A stretch of DNA of 64,000 nt from Candidatus Saccharimonadales bacterium (GTDB lineage Bacteria; Patescibacteriota; Saccharimonadia; Saccharimonadales; JBGSXW01): the NCBI GenBank assembly GCA_041751215.1, contig JBGSXW010000005.1, forward strand, positions 195,664 to 259,663, given 5' to 3'. Shown in pieces: positions 7,660 through 55,655 of this stretch; position 1 is the stretch's first letter; each line of letters starts with the position of its first letter. The translations under genes were made by a program, and so were the position numbers. The notes beneath the pieces are model-generated. The model saw nothing but the letters and a program-made list of their open reading frames with translations, made no database searches and was not told the DNA's origin.

Positions 7660-7830
7660 CAAATAGGCCTGAAGTAAGTGGAATTGGGTGTAAATCCCAG
7701 ACTGTGCCGCAACTGTAATCCCTGGTCCTTTTCAACATCAAGCGAGGTCACCCTGCTCGACGGCAAAGCCGTCAACTCTGGTGACTCATCGTCAGAAGCT
7801 CCGGTGCTCACCACACAATACGTCGAAAGT
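7660..7830 (+). promoter_or_regulatory. cobalamin (B12) riboswitch aptamer; the expression platform extends to about 8010
   Basis: GGAATTGGGTGTAAATCCCAGACTGTGCCGCAACTGTAA (7680..7718) matches the conserved core GGTGnnAAnTCCnnnnCnGnnCCGCnACTGTAA. The B12-box-like CGTCAGAAGCTCCGGTG lies at 7790..7806. Downstream, the hairpin ATCCCT...AGGGAT (7973..8010) can sequester the GGAGG SD of the 8018 ORF. A possible -10 (TATTAT) is at 7642..7647. Confidence 0.65.
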
Positions 7831-8017: not shown

Positions 8018-9496
8018 TTGGGTATAGATACACTCGAGCATCATGACCAGTTGGCTGAATACGAAATCAGCCAGTTATCTAGAGTCGCGGCGCTGGCCGA
8101 GTGGAGCCCAGAAATTTTTGAAGCTAGAGAACAGGCCTTAGTTCAGGCGCAGCAAATATATGATCGTAATCATGAACTGTTGATGGCCGGCGAGTTTGAT
8201 AAGGTTCCAATGCCAATCGATGCTATCGGCGATGCGCGCTTTCAGGTAGAGATGGAAGAAACGCACGGACCGTTTAGTCAACAAGCATTAGAAGCCGGCG
8301 AAGCCACTGTTTTATCGGCCGATCGAGCTCTGGGCGAAGCCATGCGCGCCTTAACCTGGGAGGTGTTTAAGCCAAAGCGGCGTCGTTTTGATGATGAACA
8401 AGAAGTCTTCGTCTCGGAGGGTCGCCGACCGATAATCAAACAACTCCACAAAGGTTTAAGTCCGATTGCGTCGGCCGATGAAGTCAGCCGTCGATTTCCT
8501 GAAACAATCGAAGAGGAAACCTACAACGCCATCGCCAAACATCGCAGTTTTGATCCCAACACCTGGATACTAACACTATCGCTAGCCGGAAAAGATAAAG
8601 ATATGGGCTACGTTCATAAGACCGACAAATGGATGGCGCGCGGTGTCAGTTTTGGTGAGGACGAGCAAGGAATATACCGAGATGACGAACAAGCTGGGTT
8701 ATCCGGAAGAGGTATAACCGAAGAAATTATTGACGAAACAATCGAAGAACTTGAAATTGTTGCCCCGGGCACCAGACTCACGCGCAGCGAAAAACTGGGC
8801 CTACAAATAGAGTTGGATAAAAAATACTTTCCGACCCTACTTAGTTTTATTGAGTACCTCGACGTAAAAGCCGGAACTCATATGGGTGAGCCAATCGAGC
8901 CGGGCACAGAGCGTGATTACGCTATGGTTGTAGCTGAGGCTGAGCGCCGCCACCAAGAGCAAGAAGCCAAGCGACTAGAAGTTGCAGCCTACTCGTTAGA
9001 GCTAGCCAGAAATAAAGTTGACGCTCACACTTCAAAGCAGTTGATGCATGTATTTATTGATAAAAAAGCCCACGAAATTGTTTGTCAACAACCTGAAGCC
9101 GCCCGGGCTGTGTTTGGCGATGAAACCGCTGATCGCTATCAAGAAGCTCTAGAACTTGAGCGACTAGGAGAATACGAAGCGGCCGAGGGAATGAGAAATA
9201 CTGCCGAAGAAGAAGCTCCGCTTGTAGGTTATTGCGGTGCTGGTTCGTGCGGACTCGAAAAACTAGCGGAGTTAGATCAGGCTGCCTTAAAAGCTAGGGC
9301 CGCCGGACTAGAGGGTGAGCTGCTTCGCTCTACTGAGTCAAAATGCCGCGGTGAGTGTCTTAAAGAAGGCAAAAAAGGCGATGTTCTGGTGAATATGAAG
9401 GGCAGTAAGTTCTGCGCCGAATGCGGCAGCTCAGACATTAAAGGCATTTCGGCCGCTCTTAGCGACTTCTTTGCCTCGAAAGCTAAGAGTAACTAG
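8018..9496 (+). CDS. hypothetical acidic cytoplasmic protein with a C-terminal Cys cluster (putative zinc ribbon)
   Basis: 492 aa with a TTG start 8 nt after GGAGG. The protein is helical and acidic, with no TM segment. The C-terminus carries CGAGSCG...CRGEC...CAECG. No family recognised. It lies directly downstream of the B12 riboswitch. Confidence 0.6.
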   Translation: MGIDTLEHHDQLAEYEISQLSRVAALAEWSPEIFEAREQALVQAQQIYDRNHELLMAGEFDKVPMPIDAIGDARFQVEMEETHGPFSQQALEAGEATVLSADRALGEAMRALTWEVFKPKRRRFDDEQEVFVSEGRRPIIKQLHKGLSPIASADEVSRRFPETIEEETYNAIAKHRSFDPNTWILTLSLAGKDKDMGYVHKTDKWMARGVSFGEDEQGIYRDDEQAGLSGRGITEEIIDETIEELEIVAPGTRLTRSEKLGLQIELDKKYFPTLLSFIEYLDVKAGTHMGEPIEPGTERDYAMVVAEAERRHQEQEAKRLEVAAYSLELARNKVDAHTSKQLMHVFIDKKAHEIVCQQPEAARAVFGDETADRYQEALELERLGEYEAAEGMRNTAEEEAPLVGYCGAGSCGLEKLAELDQAALKARAAGLEGELLRSTESKCRGECLKEGKKGDVLVNMKGSKFCAECGSSDIKGISAALSDFFASKAKSN

Positions 9497-10092: not shown

Positions 10093-10570
10093 CTCAACCA
10101 AACCAGCTCTGCGCGAGTACTACAGCGAAATGCGCCGTGCTCTTAGTCACTACCAAGTTGAAGCCGCCAGCTTGAGTGTCTTATCTAAGCTTAAAACTGC
10201 ACTTGATTGGACTAAGATTAAGTCAGTTCATGTCTACCAGGCAATTCCGCGCGAGAATGAAATTAACACACAAAAGTTTCAAGAATGGTTAACTGCGAAT
10301 CAGTCGCAAATAAAGATATATCACCCCGAAGATTCTCTAGACTTGCCGGAAGTTGATGTCGTTATTTTGCCAGTTATTGCTTTTGACGAGCGTGGCCATC
10401 GCTTGGGCTTTGGCGGCGGCACTTACGATAAGTGGCTAGCAAGTTCTAGGGCAATCAAGATTGGCTTGGCCTACCAGTTTGCGCGGGTGCCTAATACCCT
10501 GCCCGCCGAACCACACGATCAAAAACTCGATCTTATTATTACCGACCAGCGACTTCACACAATTGACTAA
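10079..10570 (+). CDS. 5-formyltetrahydrofolate cyclo-ligase
   Basis: VILPVIAFDERGHRLGFGGGTYDKWL is the family signature. Overlaps nadD by 14 nt. Confidence 0.8.
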   Translation: MTVHDSTKPALREYYSEMRRALSHYQVEAASLSVLSKLKTALDWTKIKSVHVYQAIPRENEINTQKFQEWLTANQSQIKIYHPEDSLDLPEVDVVILPVIAFDERGHRLGFGGGTYDKWLASSRAIKIGLAYQFARVPNTLPAEPHDQKLDLIITDQRLHTID

Positions 10571-10630
10571 ACCTCGGTAATATCGTAGAATAACTCCTAC
10601 ATTTGTCGTATCGATTAAGGAGTGTGACAG

Positions 10631-11026
10631 GTGAGCACATCATCAGCTGAAGTGGATGTACTGCACCTGCAGGCAACCATCCTCTACGCCCCAAGCAGCC
10701 CAGCCGACGAACGCGAGTTCCGAACTGCAATTGCTGCGGTAGCTGCAAGTTTCGGCGCAGACCAGCGAGTCGGCCCCGCTCGAGCCAACGTCCCCCGGGT
10801 GCTGGCCGAGATCGATCCAAGCAAGACCGTTCTCGACCATTCGACCCAGGTGCTGCGTTTGCGAACTGCAACCAGAGATGCTCTCGATCTGAATCAGATC
10901 TTCACGGTTCGTGAACTTTTGAGTCGCACCGAGAAGCAAACGCTGGCGTTGCCGTACATCGGTCCGGTTCGAATAGAAGAGATCAAGAAAGCTCTGATGT
11001 TGTTGGAGCTGGAACTCCCAGAGTAG
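10631..11026 (+). CDS. stand-alone RNA polymerase alpha C-terminal-domain (HhH)-like protein, copy 1
   Basis: 131 aa. C-terminal LRLRTATRDALDLNQIFTVRELLSRTEKQTLALPYIGPVRIEEIKKAL follows the alpha-CTD helix-hairpin-helix pattern. AAGGAG SD with a GTG start. The region is visibly more GC-rich than its flanks. Confidence 0.55.
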   Translation: MSTSSAEVDVLHLQATILYAPSSPADEREFRTAIAAVAASFGADQRVGPARANVPRVLAEIDPSKTVLDHSTQVLRLRTATRDALDLNQIFTVRELLSRTEKQTLALPYIGPVRIEEIKKALMLLELELPE

Positions 11027-11051
11027 GACTACTACAGAAGAGAGGAAAACA

Positions 11052-11447
11052 ATGAGCACCACACTAGGCGCATCTCTCACTTTCGAGGGAGAGCAAGACG
11101 GTGTCGAGGACCTTGTCAGATCGATCCTTGCTCTGAAGAAGGATCACCCGGATCTGTGCTTGAGCCTTAAGGTCACTTCTGAGGCCGAGGTCGAGGTTTC
11201 GGCTGAACCAGATCCCGATCCCGATCCCGATTCAGAGGCAGTCGGTACGAGCATCAACGATCTCGATCTGACCGAGCGCCCCAGGAACTGCCTGAAGAGG
11301 GTTGGGATCACCACCATCGAACAGCTGACATCGAAGACGGAAGATGATCTTCGAGCCATCACCAACTTCGGCGAACGCAGTCTCGAAGATGTGGTGATGA
11401 AGTTGGCGCAACGAGGCCTGAAGCTGCTCTCGTCGGACCTCAGCTGA
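11052..11447 (+). CDS. stand-alone RNA polymerase alpha C-terminal-domain-like protein, copy 2
   Basis: 131 aa. INDLDLTERPRNCLKRVGITTIEQLTSKTEDDLRAITNFGERSLEDVVMKLAQRGLKL lines up residue for residue with the RpoA CTD pattern (L-L-S-R--NCLK---I-----L-----E--LL-----G-KSL-EI---L---GL-L). A PDPDPD linker is present. Confidence 0.7.
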   Translation: MSTTLGASLTFEGEQDGVEDLVRSILALKKDHPDLCLSLKVTSEAEVEVSAEPDPDPDPDSEAVGTSINDLDLTERPRNCLKRVGITTIEQLTSKTEDDLRAITNFGERSLEDVVMKLAQRGLKLLSSDLS

Positions 11448-11588
11448 TGCATCAACTTGCGGCAAGCGCAGAGATGTAGATTAAGAAGGCAACCCTTCTT
11501 GCAAAATCTATCATCGTCTCTGCGCTTCGCCCTCTACAGTCAAGAATTGTGTAATTCTTCTGACGAGCTCAAAAGAGCGAAACTGTAA

Positions 11589-13268
11589 CTAATCATGGTG
11601 TGATTGTAGATATTCCAGATGCTTCTCGCGCTGCTTTTTGAATTCGCTCTTTCGTAGGCCGTTCTTTTTAACGAAGGCGCTGATTTTTTCGCTTCCTAAG
11701 TAATGAGGCATCATTACGTAAGTTGCGCCGGCTTCGTAAAGCTCCGAAGCTTCGGTTGCCGAATCGGAGTGACAAACGGTTACCGCATGTGGGTTAACGG
11801 CCGCCAAATGCTTTATTAAGAATAGGTTCGTTGAGTGATCGGTTATAACCGAAACAACCAACTTGGATTTACTTAACTGGAGTTCTTCCAAAAACTCTGG
11901 ATCCGTAGCATCGCCGTACATATAGTGAGCTCCGGCGTGCTCTAGGCTATCGATTGCTTCTGGGTCGTAATCTACCACTACATACTTACGGCCCATTCCT
12001 TTAAAGGTACGCAGGAATTCATTGCCGCCGCGTCTGAATCCAAACAACACTAGGTCGTATTGATGCGAGTCCGTGCGCTCACTTCTGGTTTTGCGTTTCT
12101 CAAAAAGCTGTAAGTATTTTTCTAGGAAGTTATAGAGCGAATCGCTGTAAATAATCATGTATGTAGAGACCGCGATTGTAATTAAGGCAACTAGGGTCAC
12201 CAAGGCAACGGCTTCGTCGGTAACTAGTGCTCCTCGTTGGGCTAGCAAAATTAATACAAGCGAGAATTCACTGATTTGTGCCACCGCAAGGCCGGCCTTA
12301 AAGGCGGTCTTTTTGGTGTAGCCGAGCATGCCCATAATTCCCATAACTACAATTGGGTTACCGATTAGTACCAAGGCCGACAACACTATCGCTGGCACCA
12401 TGACGGCACCGAGGCTATCAAACTCTAATCTTGCTCCTAACACAATAAAGAACACAACTAAAAAGAAGTCGCGCAGCGGACGAAGACGAGATCCAATTTC
12501 GGCAGCATAGGGCAGGGGCGCCAGTGTAACACCGGCAATTAATGCTCCAACTTCGATTGAAAACCCAGCGTTTGCAAACAGAGAAGCAATTCCAAATCCC
12601 CAGCCAATAGCAAACAAGAAGAGCAGCTCCTGGTTTTTGCTAACGTGGCCAACAAGTTTAGGCAAGATCTCGATGCTAACTATTGCCAGCAGCGCTGCCA
12701 TCCAAGTGCCTTTAACAATTAGTGCCACTAATTCAGGCGTACTGATTCCACCGCCCTCGCTAGCAGCCGAGGTTACAAGTAGGGCAAAGGTAGCCACCAA
12801 GTCTTGAACCAATAAGAAGCCAATCGAAATTTTTGCGTAAAGGCGAGTCTGCTCGTGTTTGTCCGAGATCAACTTTAAAACGATAATCGTGCTACTAAAG
12901 GCCAGCGAAATTCCGACAAACAAAGCAATAATGTGCTCGTAGCCTAGAGCGCGCGTCAGGGCGTATCCAATAGAAGTTGTAAAGGCAATCTGGCCAATTC
13001 CGGTGAACAGCGCAACCTTGCCGACTTCCTTAACTACCTGAGGGTTTAAGCCGAGGCCAATAATAAATAGCAGCAGAGCAACCCCGAGGCTGGCGAACGT
13101 ATCAACGGTTGCCTCAGAATGAACCAGGTCAAGCAAGGCCGGCCCAACAATAACGCCGGTTACGATGTAGCCAATAATAAGTGGCTGCCGCAAAACCCTA
13201 ATAATTATCGACACAACAGTGGCAATGGCTAGGATAAGGCTAATTTCTAAAAAAGCGTCGTGTTCCAT
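11589..13268 (-). CDS. monovalent cation:proton antiporter-2 (CPA2, Kef-type) with a C-terminal TrkA-N/RCK domain
   Basis: 559 aa. About 12 TM helices have a Na+/H+-exchanger-type layout. A C-terminal Rossmann-like segment (YDLVLFGFRRGGNEF) follows. Confidence 0.85.
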   Translation of the reverse strand: MEHDAFLEISLILAIATVVSIIIRVLRQPLIIGYIVTGVIVGPALLDLVHSEATVDTFASLGVALLLFIIGLGLNPQVVKEVGKVALFTGIGQIAFTTSIGYALTRALGYEHIIALFVGISLAFSSTIIVLKLISDKHEQTRLYAKISIGFLLVQDLVATFALLVTSAASEGGGISTPELVALIVKGTWMAALLAIVSIEILPKLVGHVSKNQELLFLFAIGWGFGIASLFANAGFSIEVGALIAGVTLAPLPYAAEIGSRLRPLRDFFLVVFFIVLGARLEFDSLGAVMVPAIVLSALVLIGNPIVVMGIMGMLGYTKKTAFKAGLAVAQISEFSLVLILLAQRGALVTDEAVALVTLVALITIAVSTYMIIYSDSLYNFLEKYLQLFEKRKTRSERTDSHQYDLVLFGFRRGGNEFLRTFKGMGRKYVVVDYDPEAIDSLEHAGAHYMYGDATDPEFLEELQLSKSKLVVSVITDHSTNLFLIKHLAAVNPHAVTVCHSDSATEASELYEAGATYVMMPHYLGSEKISAFVKKNGLRKSEFKKQREKHLEYLQSHHD

Positions 13269-55579: not shown

Positions 55580-55655
55580 GGGGGCGTAGCTCAGTGGTTA
55601 GAGCAGCCGGCTCATAACTGGTTGGTCGTAGGTTCAAGTCCTACCGCCCCCACCA
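55580..55655 (+). tRNA. tRNA with anticodon CAU, elongator type (Met, or Ile2 if lysidine-modified)
   Basis: The 76-nt cloverleaf reads GGGGGCG TA GCTC AGTGGTTA GAGC A GCCGG CTCATAA CTGGT TGGTC GTAGG TTCAAGT CCTAC CGCCCCC A CCA. Position 1:72 is paired and there is no GGG/CCC anticodon stem. Confidence 0.88.

What the first reader, a model, noticed from the sequence alone, without database searches (positions are those of the whole stretch)
10631..11447. GC-rich islet encoding two tandem 131-aa stand-alone RNA polymerase alpha-CTD-like proteins
The two adjacent ORFs have identical length, and both start with MST. Each ends in a helix-hairpin-helix domain matching the RpoA C-terminal domain pattern. 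The second is very clear: DLDLTERPRNCLKRVGITTIEQL...FGERSLEDVVMKLAQRGLKL. Their N-terminal ~60 aa are unrelated to RpoA NTD and to each other. The ~0.9-kb segment is visibly more GC-rich than the flanks, with G/C-ending codons and long spurious antisense ORFs that are not seen elsewhere in the window. It ends in a nested inverted repeat, GCGCAGAGA...AAGAAGG-CAAC-CCTTCTT...TCTCTGCGC, at about 11466-11524. Free alpha-CTD modules could compete for UP elements or activator contacts, as phage- or plasmid-style transcription modulators do. The composition suggests horizontal acquisition.
Basis: partly seen in the sequence, partly recalled or inferred. Interest (0 to 1): 0.55.

Follow-up and report, generated by a model that had tools for sequence, protein, structure and literature searches.

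The report
Accessory alpha-CTD gene pair with hammerhead ribozyme

Summary
Two 131-aa ORFs (10631-11026, 11052-11447) occupy the GC-richest stretch of the window (GC 0.56 vs 0.47; GC3 0.61/0.66 vs 0.47±0.05).

ORF2 carries a genuine alpha-CTD (Pfam E 4e-19; the model superposes on solved alpha-CTDs at 0.5-0.9 Å) and keeps the DNA-binding residues. Its closest relatives are housekeeping RpoA of 68-70% GC, actinobacterium-like organisms. ORF1 is a diverged alpha-CTD-like protein that has lost those residues.

The ribozyme has the same geometry as 23 distinct hammerheads on phage contigs.

The whole unit (promoter, two genes, hairpin, ribozyme) recurs at the same site in one other Saccharibacterium. 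There the proteins are only about 25-30% identical, but the hairpin base and ribozyme are 82-93% identical, with compensatory changes in all three stems. Four closer or similarly related genomes have an empty site.

It is therefore a real, patchily distributed accessory cassette. Its function is inferred, not shown: most likely free alpha-CTD modules that modulate transcription, expressed from a ribozyme-processed mRNA. Interest is moderate.

The parts
10563..10591 (+). Sigma-70-type promoter-like site: -35 TTGACT (10563-10568, overlapping the FTHFCL stop codon), 17-nt spacer, -10 TAGAAT (10586-10591)
   Evidence: Consensus scan gives 10/12 matches. The -10 region ATCGTAgAATAAC is conserved in the L074 cassette (TTGATG-17-TATAAT). 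It is a consensus match only; no transcription data.
10617..10622 (+). Shine-Dalgarno AAGGAG, 8 nt before the ORF1 GTG start
   Evidence: Read directly from the sequence. An AAGGAG is also present upstream of L074 geneA.
10631..11026 (+). ORF1, 131 aa: N-terminal ~60 aa of unknown fold, then a diverged alpha-CTD-like helix-hairpin-helix domain (residues ~66-129, nt 10826-11017)
   Evidence: Pfam RNA_pol_A_CTD 17.7 bits, below gathering. Exhaustive phmmer gives 39 hits, all via residues ~49-130; all 10 scanned carry RNA_pol_A_CTD. BLASTP vs true RpoA P0005: E 7e-6. BLASTP vs L074 geneA: 28% over 129 aa, E 1.7e-8. DNA-binding residues are replaced (alignment). The AF2 single-sequence model is poor (pLDDT 55.6).
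11041..11046 (+). Shine-Dalgarno-like AGAGGA, 5 nt before the ORF2 ATG
   Evidence: Read directly from the sequence.
11052..11447 (+). ORF2, 131 aa: N-terminal region with one predicted helix (residues 15-31), a disordered acidic Pro/Asp linker (41-63), and a canonical alpha-CTD (residues ~62-127, nt 11235-11432)
   Evidence: Pfam E 4.3e-19. PDB phmmer hits to RpoA at E 5e-16 to 1e-14. The AF2 model has CTD pLDDT ~85. Foldseek: rmsd 0.5-0.9 Å over 59 residues to solved alpha-CTDs. 58-65% identical to housekeeping RpoA C-termini from 68-70% GC contigs.
11461..11531 (+).
   Evidence: Fold of 11440-11560 (hairpin plus hammerhead): -45.5 kcal/mol, z -5.4, 0/200 shuffles fold as well. Exact-arm pattern unique in the window. 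Base of the stem is 83-93% identical in L074, while the apical stem is kept by different sequence. No terminator-like T run.
11534..11588 (+). Type III hammerhead ribozyme: stem III UACAG/CUGUA, cleavage triplet GUC (predicted cut 3' of C11541), stem I of 7 bp with GUGU loop, CUGACGA core, stem II GCUC-AAAA-GAGC, GAAA. It ends 1 nt before the stop codon of the convergent Kef gene.
   Evidence: Rfam RF00008: 45.7 bits (gathering 48.5), E 8.4e-7 for the whole window, model positions 1-54 of 54. The MFE fold gives the three-way junction. My own motif scan finds it only here and in the identical L001. Same geometry as 23 distinct phage-contig hammerheads. Covariation: 99.6% of cells paired, slid controls 33-47%. 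The L074 copy scores 46.2 bits and differs by 4 double compensatory changes.

Best explanation
Window 10563-11588 is a self-contained accessory expression cassette, acquired laterally and inserted between the convergent 5-FTHF cyclo-ligase and Kef-type antiporter genes of a Saccharibacterium.

Shown:
- It consists of a sigma-70-like promoter, two Shine-Dalgarno-preceded genes for ~131-aa proteins whose C-terminal halves are alpha-CTD-type helix-hairpin-helix domains, a 71-nt hairpin, and a type III hammerhead ribozyme of a kind common on phage contigs.
- The same unit occurs at the same site in one other Saccharibacterium and is absent from closer relatives.

Inferred:
1. The cassette is transcribed as one mRNA. 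The hammerhead cuts 3' of C11541, so the mature mRNA ends about 10 nt after the protective hairpin instead of reading antisense into Kef.
2. ORF2 keeps the alpha-CTD '265 determinant'. It acts as a free alpha-CTD that binds A/T-rich, UP-element-like DNA and/or alpha-CTD-binding regulators without being part of RNA polymerase. That makes it a competitor or decoy that re-tunes transcription.
3. ORF1 has lost those residues and serves as a protein-binding partner or adaptor, possibly pairing with ORF2 through the N-terminal regions to give a two-CTD assembly resembling the alpha dimer.
4. The ORF2 CTD was captured secondarily from an actinobacterium-type rpoA.
For: Anatomy.

Alpha-CTD identity:
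- ORF2: Pfam E 4e-19; rmsd 0.5-0.9 Å to solved alpha-CTDs.
- ORF2 aligned to B. subtilis and M. tuberculosis alpha keeps the residues equivalent to E. coli R265, N268, C269, N294, G296 and S299, with K298 changed to R (residue roles from established E. coli alpha-CTD genetics).
- ORF1: 39 exhaustive hits, the 10 scanned all alpha-CTD proteins. It has A, D, A, Y, V, R at the positions of R265, N268, C269, N294, K298, S299.

Foreign origin:
- GC and GC3 are outliers.
- Empty sites in L073 (Kef 85%), L076 (65%), L081 and L082 (61%).
- The cassette is present in L074 (71%), where its GC3 equals that of its flanks.

Selection on the RNA module: coding DNA is 41-45% identical, but the hairpin base is 83-93% and the hammerhead 82% identical, with 4 double compensatory changes and no disruption. 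The hammerhead is absent from empty-site relatives.

Phage-type module: 58 viral contigs carry the same core. 23 unique type III copies have identical geometry and mostly a stem-loop 0-4 nt upstream (upstream MFE -16.6 vs -7.3 kcal/mol, p 1.5e-7). Perreault et al. 2011 report bacterial hammerheads flanking short gene blocks in prophages (PMC3088659).

Precedent for a free alpha-CTD: Bacillus phage Goe8 gp005.

ORF2 CTD as an outlier: local alignment score 200 against RpoA, versus 64-82 for the other three cassette CTDs. Its nearest relatives lie in rpsM-rpsK-rpsD-rpoA-rplQ operons on 68-70% GC contigs whose alpha-NTD best matches mycobacterial and Streptomyces alpha.
Against: - No functional data of any kind: no transcript ends, no cleavage assay, no DNA or protein binding.
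- Both hammerheads score about 2-3 bits below Rfam's gathering threshold.
- Only two instances of the cassette are known. Pattern and profile scans of viral and JGI metagenome contigs found no more.
- No phage, integrase or transposase genes lie nearby, and none of the 58 phage loci with related hammerheads encodes an alpha-CTD protein. The phage link therefore rests on the ribozyme type alone.
- The L074 proteins are poor alpha-CTD matches (25.6 and 17.9 bits). Mimicry of RpoA is thus not a conserved property of the family.
- N-terminal homology between the two cassettes is only suggestive (z 2-2.6), and ORF1-ORF2 pairing is pure inference.
- The resident rpoA of this genome could not be retrieved. 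'Closer to actinobacterial RpoA than to its own' is therefore inferred from composition and search behaviour, not measured.
Confidence: 0.5

Rival explanations
1. Conflict module (anti-phage decoy or counter-defence). The free alpha-CTDs act as bait or decoy for phage proteins that target the host alpha-CTD (modifying enzymes, alpha-CTD-binding takeover factors). Alternatively they are phage-derived takeover factors kept as a moron.
For: - Very fast protein divergence (24-33% identity) against 71% for the flanking Kef.
- Patchy presence at a variable junction that holds a different ORF in L075.
- A phage-type hammerhead module.
- ORF1's best single-domain relative, P0032, lies on a 240-kb contig of small ORFans with an SNF2 helicase, which looks phage-like.
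- Phage Goe8 encodes a free alpha-CTD protein among its early genes.
- The defence kinase PglW contains an alpha-CTD-like region.
Against: - There are no PADLOC or PHROGs family matches apart from the generic PglW alpha-CTD region.
- No effector, nuclease or toxin gene lies in or next to the cassette.
- Fast divergence could also reflect relaxed constraint.
Confidence: 0.17
2. Host-directed mimic. ORF2 imitates the alpha-CTD of the actinobacterial host on which Saccharibacteria live. After delivery into the host, it titrates host activators or UP elements.
For: - The ORF2 CTD is 58-65% identical to RpoA C-termini from 68-70% GC contigs whose alpha-NTD best matches mycobacterial and Streptomyces alpha.
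- Cultivated Saccharibacteria grow as epibionts on Actinobacteria (abstract of PMC10633639).
Against: - No signal peptide or secretion signal is evident in either protein (sequence), and no secretion genes are adjacent.
- The L074 homologues are not RpoA-like.
- The host of this organism is unknown.
Confidence: 0.1
3. Non-functional debris. The two ORFs are decaying fragments of foreign DNA (including a piece of an rpoA 3' end) that happen to remain open. The hairpin and hammerhead are the only selected parts.
For: - There are no full-length homologues of either protein among 5.8 billion clustered proteins.
- Coding DNA is near-random between the two cassettes, while the RNA module is conserved.
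- ORF1 and L074B fall below Pfam's threshold.
Against: - Two intact ORFs of about 131-138 aa are kept in the same order, with Shine-Dalgarno sites and a conserved promoter, in two species whose synonymous sites are saturated.
- ORF2 keeps 33 columns that are invariant among RpoA CTDs, including the DNA-binding residues.
- L074A and L074B are clear paralogues that retain the fold signature.
Confidence: 0.1
4. General DNA-binding or nucleoid proteins (HhH proteins in the manner of ComEA or other minor-groove binders), unrelated to RNA polymerase or transcription initiation.
For: - HHH_5 matches accompany the alpha-CTD matches.
- Alpha-CTD-like modules occur in many non-RpoA architectures, including proteins with 2-11 tandem repeats.
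Against: - The ORF2 CTD is specifically RpoA-type (63% identity to true RpoA), not a generic HhH domain.
- ORF1 lacks the basic DNA-contact residues.
Confidence: 0.08

Closest known systems
RNA polymerase alpha subunit C-terminal domain (Pfam PF03118; e.g. E. coli alpha-CTD 1LB2/3N4M, B. subtilis alpha-CTD 1Z3E)
   Same: ORF2 residues ~62-127 have the same fold (rmsd 0.5-0.9 Å). They keep the residues that contact the DNA minor groove (the R265, N268, C269, G296, S299 equivalents). A flexible linker precedes the domain, as in alpha.
   Different: There is no alpha-NTD, so no dimerisation or beta/beta' assembly surface. The genes are not in the ribosomal-protein/rpoA operon. ORF1 has replaced the DNA-contact residues.
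Bacillus phage vB_BmeM-Goe8 gp005 (YP_009849950.1, annotated 'RNA polymerase subunit alpha', uncharacterised)
   Same: It is a small protein with an unrelated N-terminal part plus a C-terminal alpha-CTD that resembles the RpoA CTD of the phage's host group. It is encoded on a mobile genome among small early genes.
   Different: It is 210 aa with a longer, unrelated N-terminus. It is a single gene, not a tandem pair, and no hammerhead was examined there. ORF1 has no match in annotated phages.
Type III hammerhead ribozymes of phages and prophages (Rfam RF00008; Perreault et al. 2011, PMC3088659)
   Same: The core, three-helix topology, stem lengths and loop sequences are the same (7-bp stem I with GUGU, stem II GCUC-AAAA-GAGC). 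A stem-loop sits just upstream, and the element lies in an intergenic position flanking a short gene block.
   Different: It sits in a CPR bacterial chromosome with no prophage genes nearby. It lies at the end of a convergent gene pair rather than between co-directional genes, so no downstream gene is released by cleavage. I found no paper linking hammerheads to CPR bacteria.
Multi-repeat alpha-CTD proteins (e.g. P0012, 1031 aa with 11 RNA_pol_A_CTD repeats; uncharacterised)
   Same: These are ORF1's best sequence matches. Their alpha-CTD-like modules also exist outside RNA polymerase.
   Different: They carry many tandem domains, often behind a signal-peptide-like N-terminus. ORF1 has one domain and no such N-terminus.

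Membership tests
RNA_pol_A_CTD domain (PF03118) | Profile match above Pfam's gathering score | tested here: met
   ORF2 scores 68.5 bits against a gathering score of 23.8. ORF1 alone does not meet it (17.7 bits). L074A meets it (25.6 bits) and L074B does not (17.9 bits).
RNA_pol_A_CTD domain (PF03118) | Compact helical fold with two helix-hairpin-helix motifs, superposable on solved alpha-CTDs | tested here: met
   The ORF2 model (CTD pLDDT ~85) superposes on 1Z3E, 1LB2 and 3N4M at 0.5-0.9 Å over 59 residues, TM-score 0.78-0.86 normalised to the target. For ORF1 the test is inconclusive because the model has pLDDT 55.6.
RNA_pol_A_CTD domain (PF03118) | DNA-binding '265 determinant' residues (E. 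coli R265, N268, C269, G296, K298, S299) | tested here: met
   ORF2 keeps R, N, C, G and S, with K298 changed to R (alignment to B. subtilis and M. tuberculosis alpha; numbering from established knowledge). ORF1 does not meet this: it has A, D, A, G, V, R.
Bona fide RNA polymerase alpha subunit (RpoA) | N-terminal dimerisation/assembly domain (RNA_pol_L / RNA_pol_A_bac) | tested here: not met
   There is no Pfam hit to alpha-NTD families. hhalign of either N-terminal half against a profile covering the end of the alpha-NTD gives probability below 1%.
Bona fide RNA polymerase alpha subunit (RpoA) | Location in the rpsM-rpsK-rpsD-rpoA-rplQ gene cluster | tested here: not met
   The neighbours are NadD, 5-FTHF cyclo-ligase and a Kef-type antiporter. 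The true RpoA relatives P0009 and P0005 do sit in that cluster.
Hammerhead ribozyme, type III (RF00008) | Invariant catalytic core (CUGANGA ... GAAA) and an NUH cleavage triplet | tested here: met
   CUGACGA, GAAA and GUC are present in the window. The L074 copy has CUGAUGA, GAAA and AUC.
Hammerhead ribozyme, type III (RF00008) | Three helices around the core, with stems I and II closed by loops and stem III open, supported by covariation | tested here: met
   The Rfam alignment covers model positions 1-54 of 54 and the MFE fold agrees. Across 17 sequences, 99.6% of cells are paired and 8 pairs change on both sides (caveat: stem II was fixed by the search pattern and my filter required pairing). 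Window and L074 differ by 4 double compensatory changes and no disruption.
Hammerhead ribozyme, type III (RF00008) | Score at or above Rfam's gathering threshold | tested here: not met
   The scores are 45.7 bits (window) and 46.2 bits (L074) against a gathering score of 48.5. The E-values are 8.4e-7 and 4.7e-7.
Hammerhead ribozyme, type III (RF00008) | Self-cleavage activity | not testable with these tools
   This needs in vitro transcription of about 11440-11600, or mapping of RNA ends in vivo.
Prophage / phage moron | Adjacent phage genes (integrase, structural or replication genes) or attachment sites | tested here: not met
   There are no such Pfam families within about 6-7 kb on either side, no PHROGs hits for the cassette proteins, and no flanking direct repeats of note. 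Only the ribozyme type links the cassette to phages.
Intrinsic (Rho-independent) terminator | GC-rich hairpin followed by a U-tract | tested here: not met
   The terminator scan does not call the 11461-11531 hairpin, and no T run follows it.

The most novel reading that the evidence does not exclude
An episymbiotic CPR bacterium carries a fast-evolving, horizontally exchanged module whose product is a free copy of an actinobacterium-type RNA polymerase alpha-CTD. The product would work either as a molecular mimic aimed at the transcription machinery of its actinobacterial host or as a decoy in phage conflict. Its expression would be set by a conserved hairpin-hammerhead element. That would give a bacterial chromosomal hammerhead a defined gene-expression role (ribozyme-made mRNA 3' ends) and free alpha-CTDs a defined biological function.
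Probability: 0.12. Interest if true: 0.85.

Novelty: new variant of a known kind. Interest (0 to 1): 0.55.

Why it matters
- **Free alpha-CTD proteins.** They are widespread in sequence databases (single-domain, phage-borne and multi-repeat forms), but I found no paper describing their function. A small, portable pair, one copy of which keeps every DNA-contact residue, is a tractable entry point.
- **Bacterial hammerheads.** They have been catalogued for 15 years without a clear role. Here one sits in a fixed position after a conserved hairpin at the end of a two-gene mRNA, and it is better conserved than the genes themselves. That gives a concrete, testable hypothesis: ribozyme-defined mRNA 3' ends.
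- **Saccharibacteria.** I found no report of hammerheads in CPR bacteria. The cassette also marks a recombination-prone accessory site, and it hints that rpoA-derived sequence has moved from high-GC bacteria into an epibiont lineage.

Tried and rejected
1. **"Each ORF is a truncated rpoA C-terminal third" (last NTD helix + linker + CTD).** HMMER alignments to full alpha subunits reached back to ORF2 residues 24-31. But BLASTP supports only residues 68-127, and hhalign of both N-terminal halves against a profile of the end of the alpha-NTD gives probability below 1%. Rejected.
2. **PglW (Pgl/BREX type 2) relationship.** L074A and ORF2 hit PglW. True RpoA CTDs hit the same profile region, and the N-terminal segments alone do not. 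The hit is a generic alpha-CTD-like domain, not a specific link.
3. **Remnant of the cassette in L073's 72-bp empty site** (shared CTCTGCGCTT). Not significant: 83/500 shuffles score as well.
4. **More copies of the cassette.** ORF2 vs viral contigs: none. Ribozyme-apex pattern vs viral contigs: none. Hairpin+core pattern vs JGI metagenomes and viral contigs: 4 hits, all chance matches in AT-rich DNA with no GAAA core and no homologous genes. Four-protein profile vs viral contigs: none.
5. **Alpha-CTD genes next to related phage hammerheads.** None in 510 kb.
6. **Phage and plasmid tblastn.** Almost all hits are real rpoA in mislabelled chromosome fragments. The Streptomyces 'plasmid' hit I examined (H34) is a full-length second rpoA.
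7. **N-terminal domain.** No PDB relative by profile search. No PHROGs hits. The single-sequence AF2 model of ORF1 is too poor to use.
8. **Resident rpoA of this genome.** It is not in the window and I could not retrieve it.
Full report
**1. The observation**

The two ORFs exist exactly as described: 10631-11026 (GTG start, 131 aa) and 11052-11447 (ATG start, 131 aa), both on the + strand and both beginning MST.

The 817-bp segment is the GC maximum of the 64-kb window: 0.559 against a mean of 0.469 (z 3.7, top 0.05% of windows). In the correct frames GC3 is 0.606 (ORF1) and 0.659 (ORF2), against 0.471 ± 0.047 for the other 69 long ORFs. The long antisense ORFs are a by-product of this composition.

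The inverted repeat GCGCAGAGA…TCTCTGCGC lies at 11466-11525 and is unique in the window. It belongs to a 71-nt hairpin at 11461-11531 (the fold of 11440-11560 has z -5.4). No T-tract follows, so it is not a canonical intrinsic terminator.

**2. The proteins**

*ORF2.* It has a canonical alpha-CTD:
- Pfam RNA_pol_A_CTD E 4.3e-19.
- PDB hits to RpoA of C. difficile, B. subtilis and M. tuberculosis at E 5e-16 to 1e-14.
- The AlphaFold model has pLDDT ~85 over residues 66-125 and a disordered acidic linker at 41-63.
- Foldseek superposes the model on solved alpha-CTDs at 0.5-0.9 Å over 59 residues.

In the HMMER alignments ORF2 keeps the residues equivalent to E. coli R265, N268, C269, N294, G296 and S299, with K298 changed to R. 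This is the DNA minor-groove determinant. The residue roles come from established E. coli alpha-CTD genetics, not from a test here.

*ORF1.* It is below Pfam's threshold (17.7 bits) and is an orphan in the word-indexed search. Other evidence shows it is alpha-CTD-like:
- An exhaustive phmmer search gives 39 hits, all through residues ~49-130. All 10 that I scanned carry RNA_pol_A_CTD, several as 2-11 tandem repeats.
- 20 of its 23 weak PDB hits are RpoA.
- BLASTP against a true RpoA C-terminus gives 35% identity over 51 aa, E 7e-6.

ORF1 is therefore a diverged alpha-CTD-like domain. It has A, D, A, Y, V and R at the positions of R265, N268, C269, N294, K298 and S299, so DNA binding in the alpha-CTD manner is unlikely.

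*N-terminal halves.* Neither matches the alpha-NTD, and they do not match each other. Neither protein is an RNA polymerase subunit.

**3. The organism and the origin of the ORF2 CTD**

Relatives of the flanking Kef-type gene are all Candidatus Saccharibacteria / Saccharimonadales. Their loci have 40-48% GC.

ORF2 has no full-length homologue among 5.8 billion protein clusters. The eight other hits cover only the CTD at 57-65% identity. Two of them were traced to rpsM-rpsK-rpsD-rpoA-rplQ operons on contigs of 68-70% GC. One of those contigs has an alpha-NTD that best matches mycobacterial and Streptomyces alpha (E 1e-75, against 1e-61 for Thermus and Bacillus).

The ORF2 CTD is therefore closest to housekeeping RpoA of a high-GC, actinobacterium-like clade. 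I could not retrieve the resident rpoA of this genome (it is not in the window), so the comparison with 'self' remains open.

**4. The hammerhead**

An Rfam scan of the region found a full-length type III hammerhead at 11534-11588 on the coding strand: 45.7 bits (gathering 48.5), E 8.4e-7 for the whole window, and the only one in the window. Its elements are:
- stem III: UACAG/CUGUA;
- cleavage triplet: GUC, with the predicted cut 3' of C11541;
- stem I: AAGAAUU-GUGU-AAUUCUU;
- core: CUGACGA;
- stem II: GCUC-AAAA-GAGC;
- GAAA.

The sequence folds into the three-way junction without constraints. It starts 2 nt after the hairpin and ends 1 nt before the stop codon of the convergent Kef gene.

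A core+stem II pattern matched 58 viral contigs. 23 distinct sequences there are type III with the same geometry: a 7-bp stem I, a 4-nt GUGU/GUGA-type loop and the same stem II. The remainder look like type II.

Stems I and III covary strongly across these sequences: 99.6% of cells are paired, 8 pairs change on both sides, and slid controls give 33-47%. Two caveats apply. Stem II was fixed by my search pattern, and my filter required pairing.

Most phage copies have a stem-loop 0-4 nt upstream (upstream MFE -16.6 vs -7.3 kcal/mol for controls, p 1.5e-7). Most also have an ATG within about 25 nt downstream, preceded by an RBS-like sequence in those I inspected. 'Hairpin then type III hammerhead' is thus a recurrent phage intergenic module. 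This agrees with Perreault et al. 2011, who found bacterial hammerheads flanking single genes or short gene blocks in prophages (PMC3088659).

**5. Presence and absence**

Using Kef homologues I read the same junction in closer relatives.

| Locus | Kef identity | Junction between Kef and FTHFCL |
|---|---|---|
| window | 100% | cassette |
| L073 | 85% | empty, 72 bp |
| L074 | 71% | cassette |
| L075 | 66% | unrelated 229-aa ORF |
| L076 | 65% | empty, 188 bp |
| L081 | 61% | empty, 25 bp |
| L082 | 61% | empty, 11 bp |
| L003, L007 | 55% | Kef abuts NadD (no FTHFCL) |

L074 (NCBI GCA_964349695.1) carries, at exactly this site, a promoter-like TTGATG-17-TATAAT, two tandem genes of 138 and 132 aa, a hairpin and a hammerhead. 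Rfam scores that hammerhead at 46.2 bits, E 4.7e-7, and finds none in L073, L075 or L076.

The L074 proteins are clear paralogues of each other (N-terminal halves z 14, CTDs 34/78 identical). One passes Pfam's alpha-CTD threshold. ORF1 aligns to L074A at 28% over 129 aa (E 1.7e-8), and ORF2 to L074B at 24% over 123 aa (E 2e-5).

Between the two cassettes the coding DNA is 41-45% identical. The hairpin base is 83-93% identical and the hammerhead 82%. The hammerhead differences comprise four double compensatory changes (one in stem III, one in stem I, two in stem II), one G-C to G-U change and the free N7 position; no pair is broken. The apical stem of the hairpin is maintained by different sequence. 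The RNA module is therefore under stronger purifying selection than the proteins.

In L074 the cassette's GC3 (0.61-0.66) equals that of its flanking genes (0.60-0.66). In the window genome the same composition stands out against a GC3 of 0.47. The simplest reading is lateral acquisition from a ~55% GC Saccharibacterium-like lineage, probably by recombination through the conserved flanks.

The ORF2 CTD is an outlier within the family. Its local alignment score to RpoA is 200, against 64-82 for the other three CTDs, and its GC3 is 0.74. This suggests a secondary capture or replacement by an actinobacterium-type rpoA 3' end. That step is inference.

**6. How it most likely works**

*Shown.* The anatomy of a compact expression unit: promoter, two Shine-Dalgarno-preceded genes, hairpin and ribozyme. 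Its accessory, patchy distribution. The alpha-CTD nature of the C-terminal domains. Selection on the RNA module.

*Inferred.*
- The unit is transcribed as one mRNA, possibly also by read-through from NadD-FTHFCL.
- The hammerhead cleaves after C11541, leaving an mRNA that ends in the hairpin and is uncoupled from antisense read-through into Kef.
- ORF2 acts as a free alpha-CTD, competing for A/T-rich UP-like DNA and/or for alpha-CTD-binding partners.
- ORF1, without DNA-contact residues, is a protein-binding partner.

I give the composite explanation about 0.5. The structural parts are well above that; the decoy/modulator function is about 0.35-0.4.

*Rivals.* A conflict module in phage defence or counter-defence (0.17); a host-directed mimic of actinobacterial alpha-CTD (0.10); non-functional debris (0.10); generic HhH DNA-binding proteins (0.08).

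**7. Comparison with known systems**

The proteins are members of the alpha-CTD domain family (ORF2 firmly, ORF1 marginally). They are not RpoA: the alpha-NTD and the operon context were both tested and not met.

The nearest precedent for a free alpha-CTD is the uncharacterised gp005 of Bacillus phage Goe8. Multi-repeat alpha-CTD proteins are ORF1's nearest sequence relatives.

The ribozyme is an ordinary member of the phage-associated type III hammerheads. Its setting is unusual: a CPR chromosome, the end of a convergent gene pair, and coupling to a conserved hairpin.

I found no paper linking hammerheads to CPR bacteria and none describing a function for free alpha-CTD proteins. These are negative results from a limited library, not proof of novelty.

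**8. Verdict**

It is a new variant of known kinds, not a new category. Interest is moderate (0.55), because both components (free alpha-CTDs and bacterial hammerheads) lack known functions and this locus makes both directly testable.

Noticed in passing
window 7680-7751 (+), upstream of ORF 8018-9496; L073 5654-5787 (-); L076 12568-12646 (-): A cobalamin-riboswitch-like element lies upstream of the 492-aa protein that has no Pfam family. The window match is 26 bits, partial and below gathering. The orthologous 486-488-aa genes in relatives have clearer ones: Cobalamin at 29.8 bits in L073, and AdoCbl-II at 48.8 bits (above gathering) in L076. This orphan protein, which has C-terminal Cys clusters, is probably B12-regulated.
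   Followed up: partly
Kef/FTHFCL junction: window 10571-11588; L075 9740-10429: The convergent junction between Kef and 5-FTHF cyclo-ligase is a variable spot. It is empty (11-188 bp) in four relatives, holds the alpha-CTD cassette in two genomes, and holds an unrelated 229-aa ORF with no family hits in L075.
   Followed up: partly
PADLOC profile PDLC02512 (PglW), profile positions ~796-858: Genuine RpoA CTDs (P0005, a Streptomyces RpoA, phage Goe8 gp005) all hit an internal region of the PglW kinase of the Pgl/BREX type 2 defence system at E 2e-5 to 3e-6. PglW therefore appears to contain an alpha-CTD-like module.
   Followed up: partly
P0012, P0013, P0014, P0016 and others (hits): There is a large set of proteins made of 4-11 tandem RNA_pol_A_CTD repeats. 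Some have signal-peptide-like N-termini (e.g. MFQNKNIKLYFIALLLFTFATDSMAC...). I know of no described function.
   Followed up: no
P0032 context (Logan SRR26290409, 240-kb contig; no DNA held): ORF1's best single-domain relative (181 aa, 40% identity over residues 49-130) lies among a run of small ORFan genes near an SNF2-type helicase on a 240-kb contig. This looks like a large phage.
   Followed up: no
window 10334-10358 and 11450-11474: A 25-nt imperfect inverted repeat (21/25 complementary) has one arm inside the FTHFCL coding region and the other just after the ORF2 stop, overlapping the foot of the hairpin. It is the longest inverted repeat in the 1.6-kb region. By my rough estimate a chance match this good is unlikely (~1e-3). 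Its meaning is unknown, and I did not check whether it is present in L074.
   Followed up: no
L076 16549-16805 (+): A group I catalytic intron (Rfam 88.7 bits, E 2e-21) is present in a related Saccharibacterium contig.
   Followed up: no
L009 9286-10237: The rpoA of this 70% GC contig is split by a frameshift, so its CTD was called as a separate 78-aa protein (P0009). This is probably an assembly error. It explains why several 'stand-alone alpha-CTD' database entries are really RpoA fragments.
   Followed up: yes
window 55580-55653 (-): An Rfam Plastid-ycf2 hit (44.4 bits, below gathering) lies exactly antisense to a tRNA gene. It is almost certainly an artefact of tRNA-like structure.
   Followed up: no
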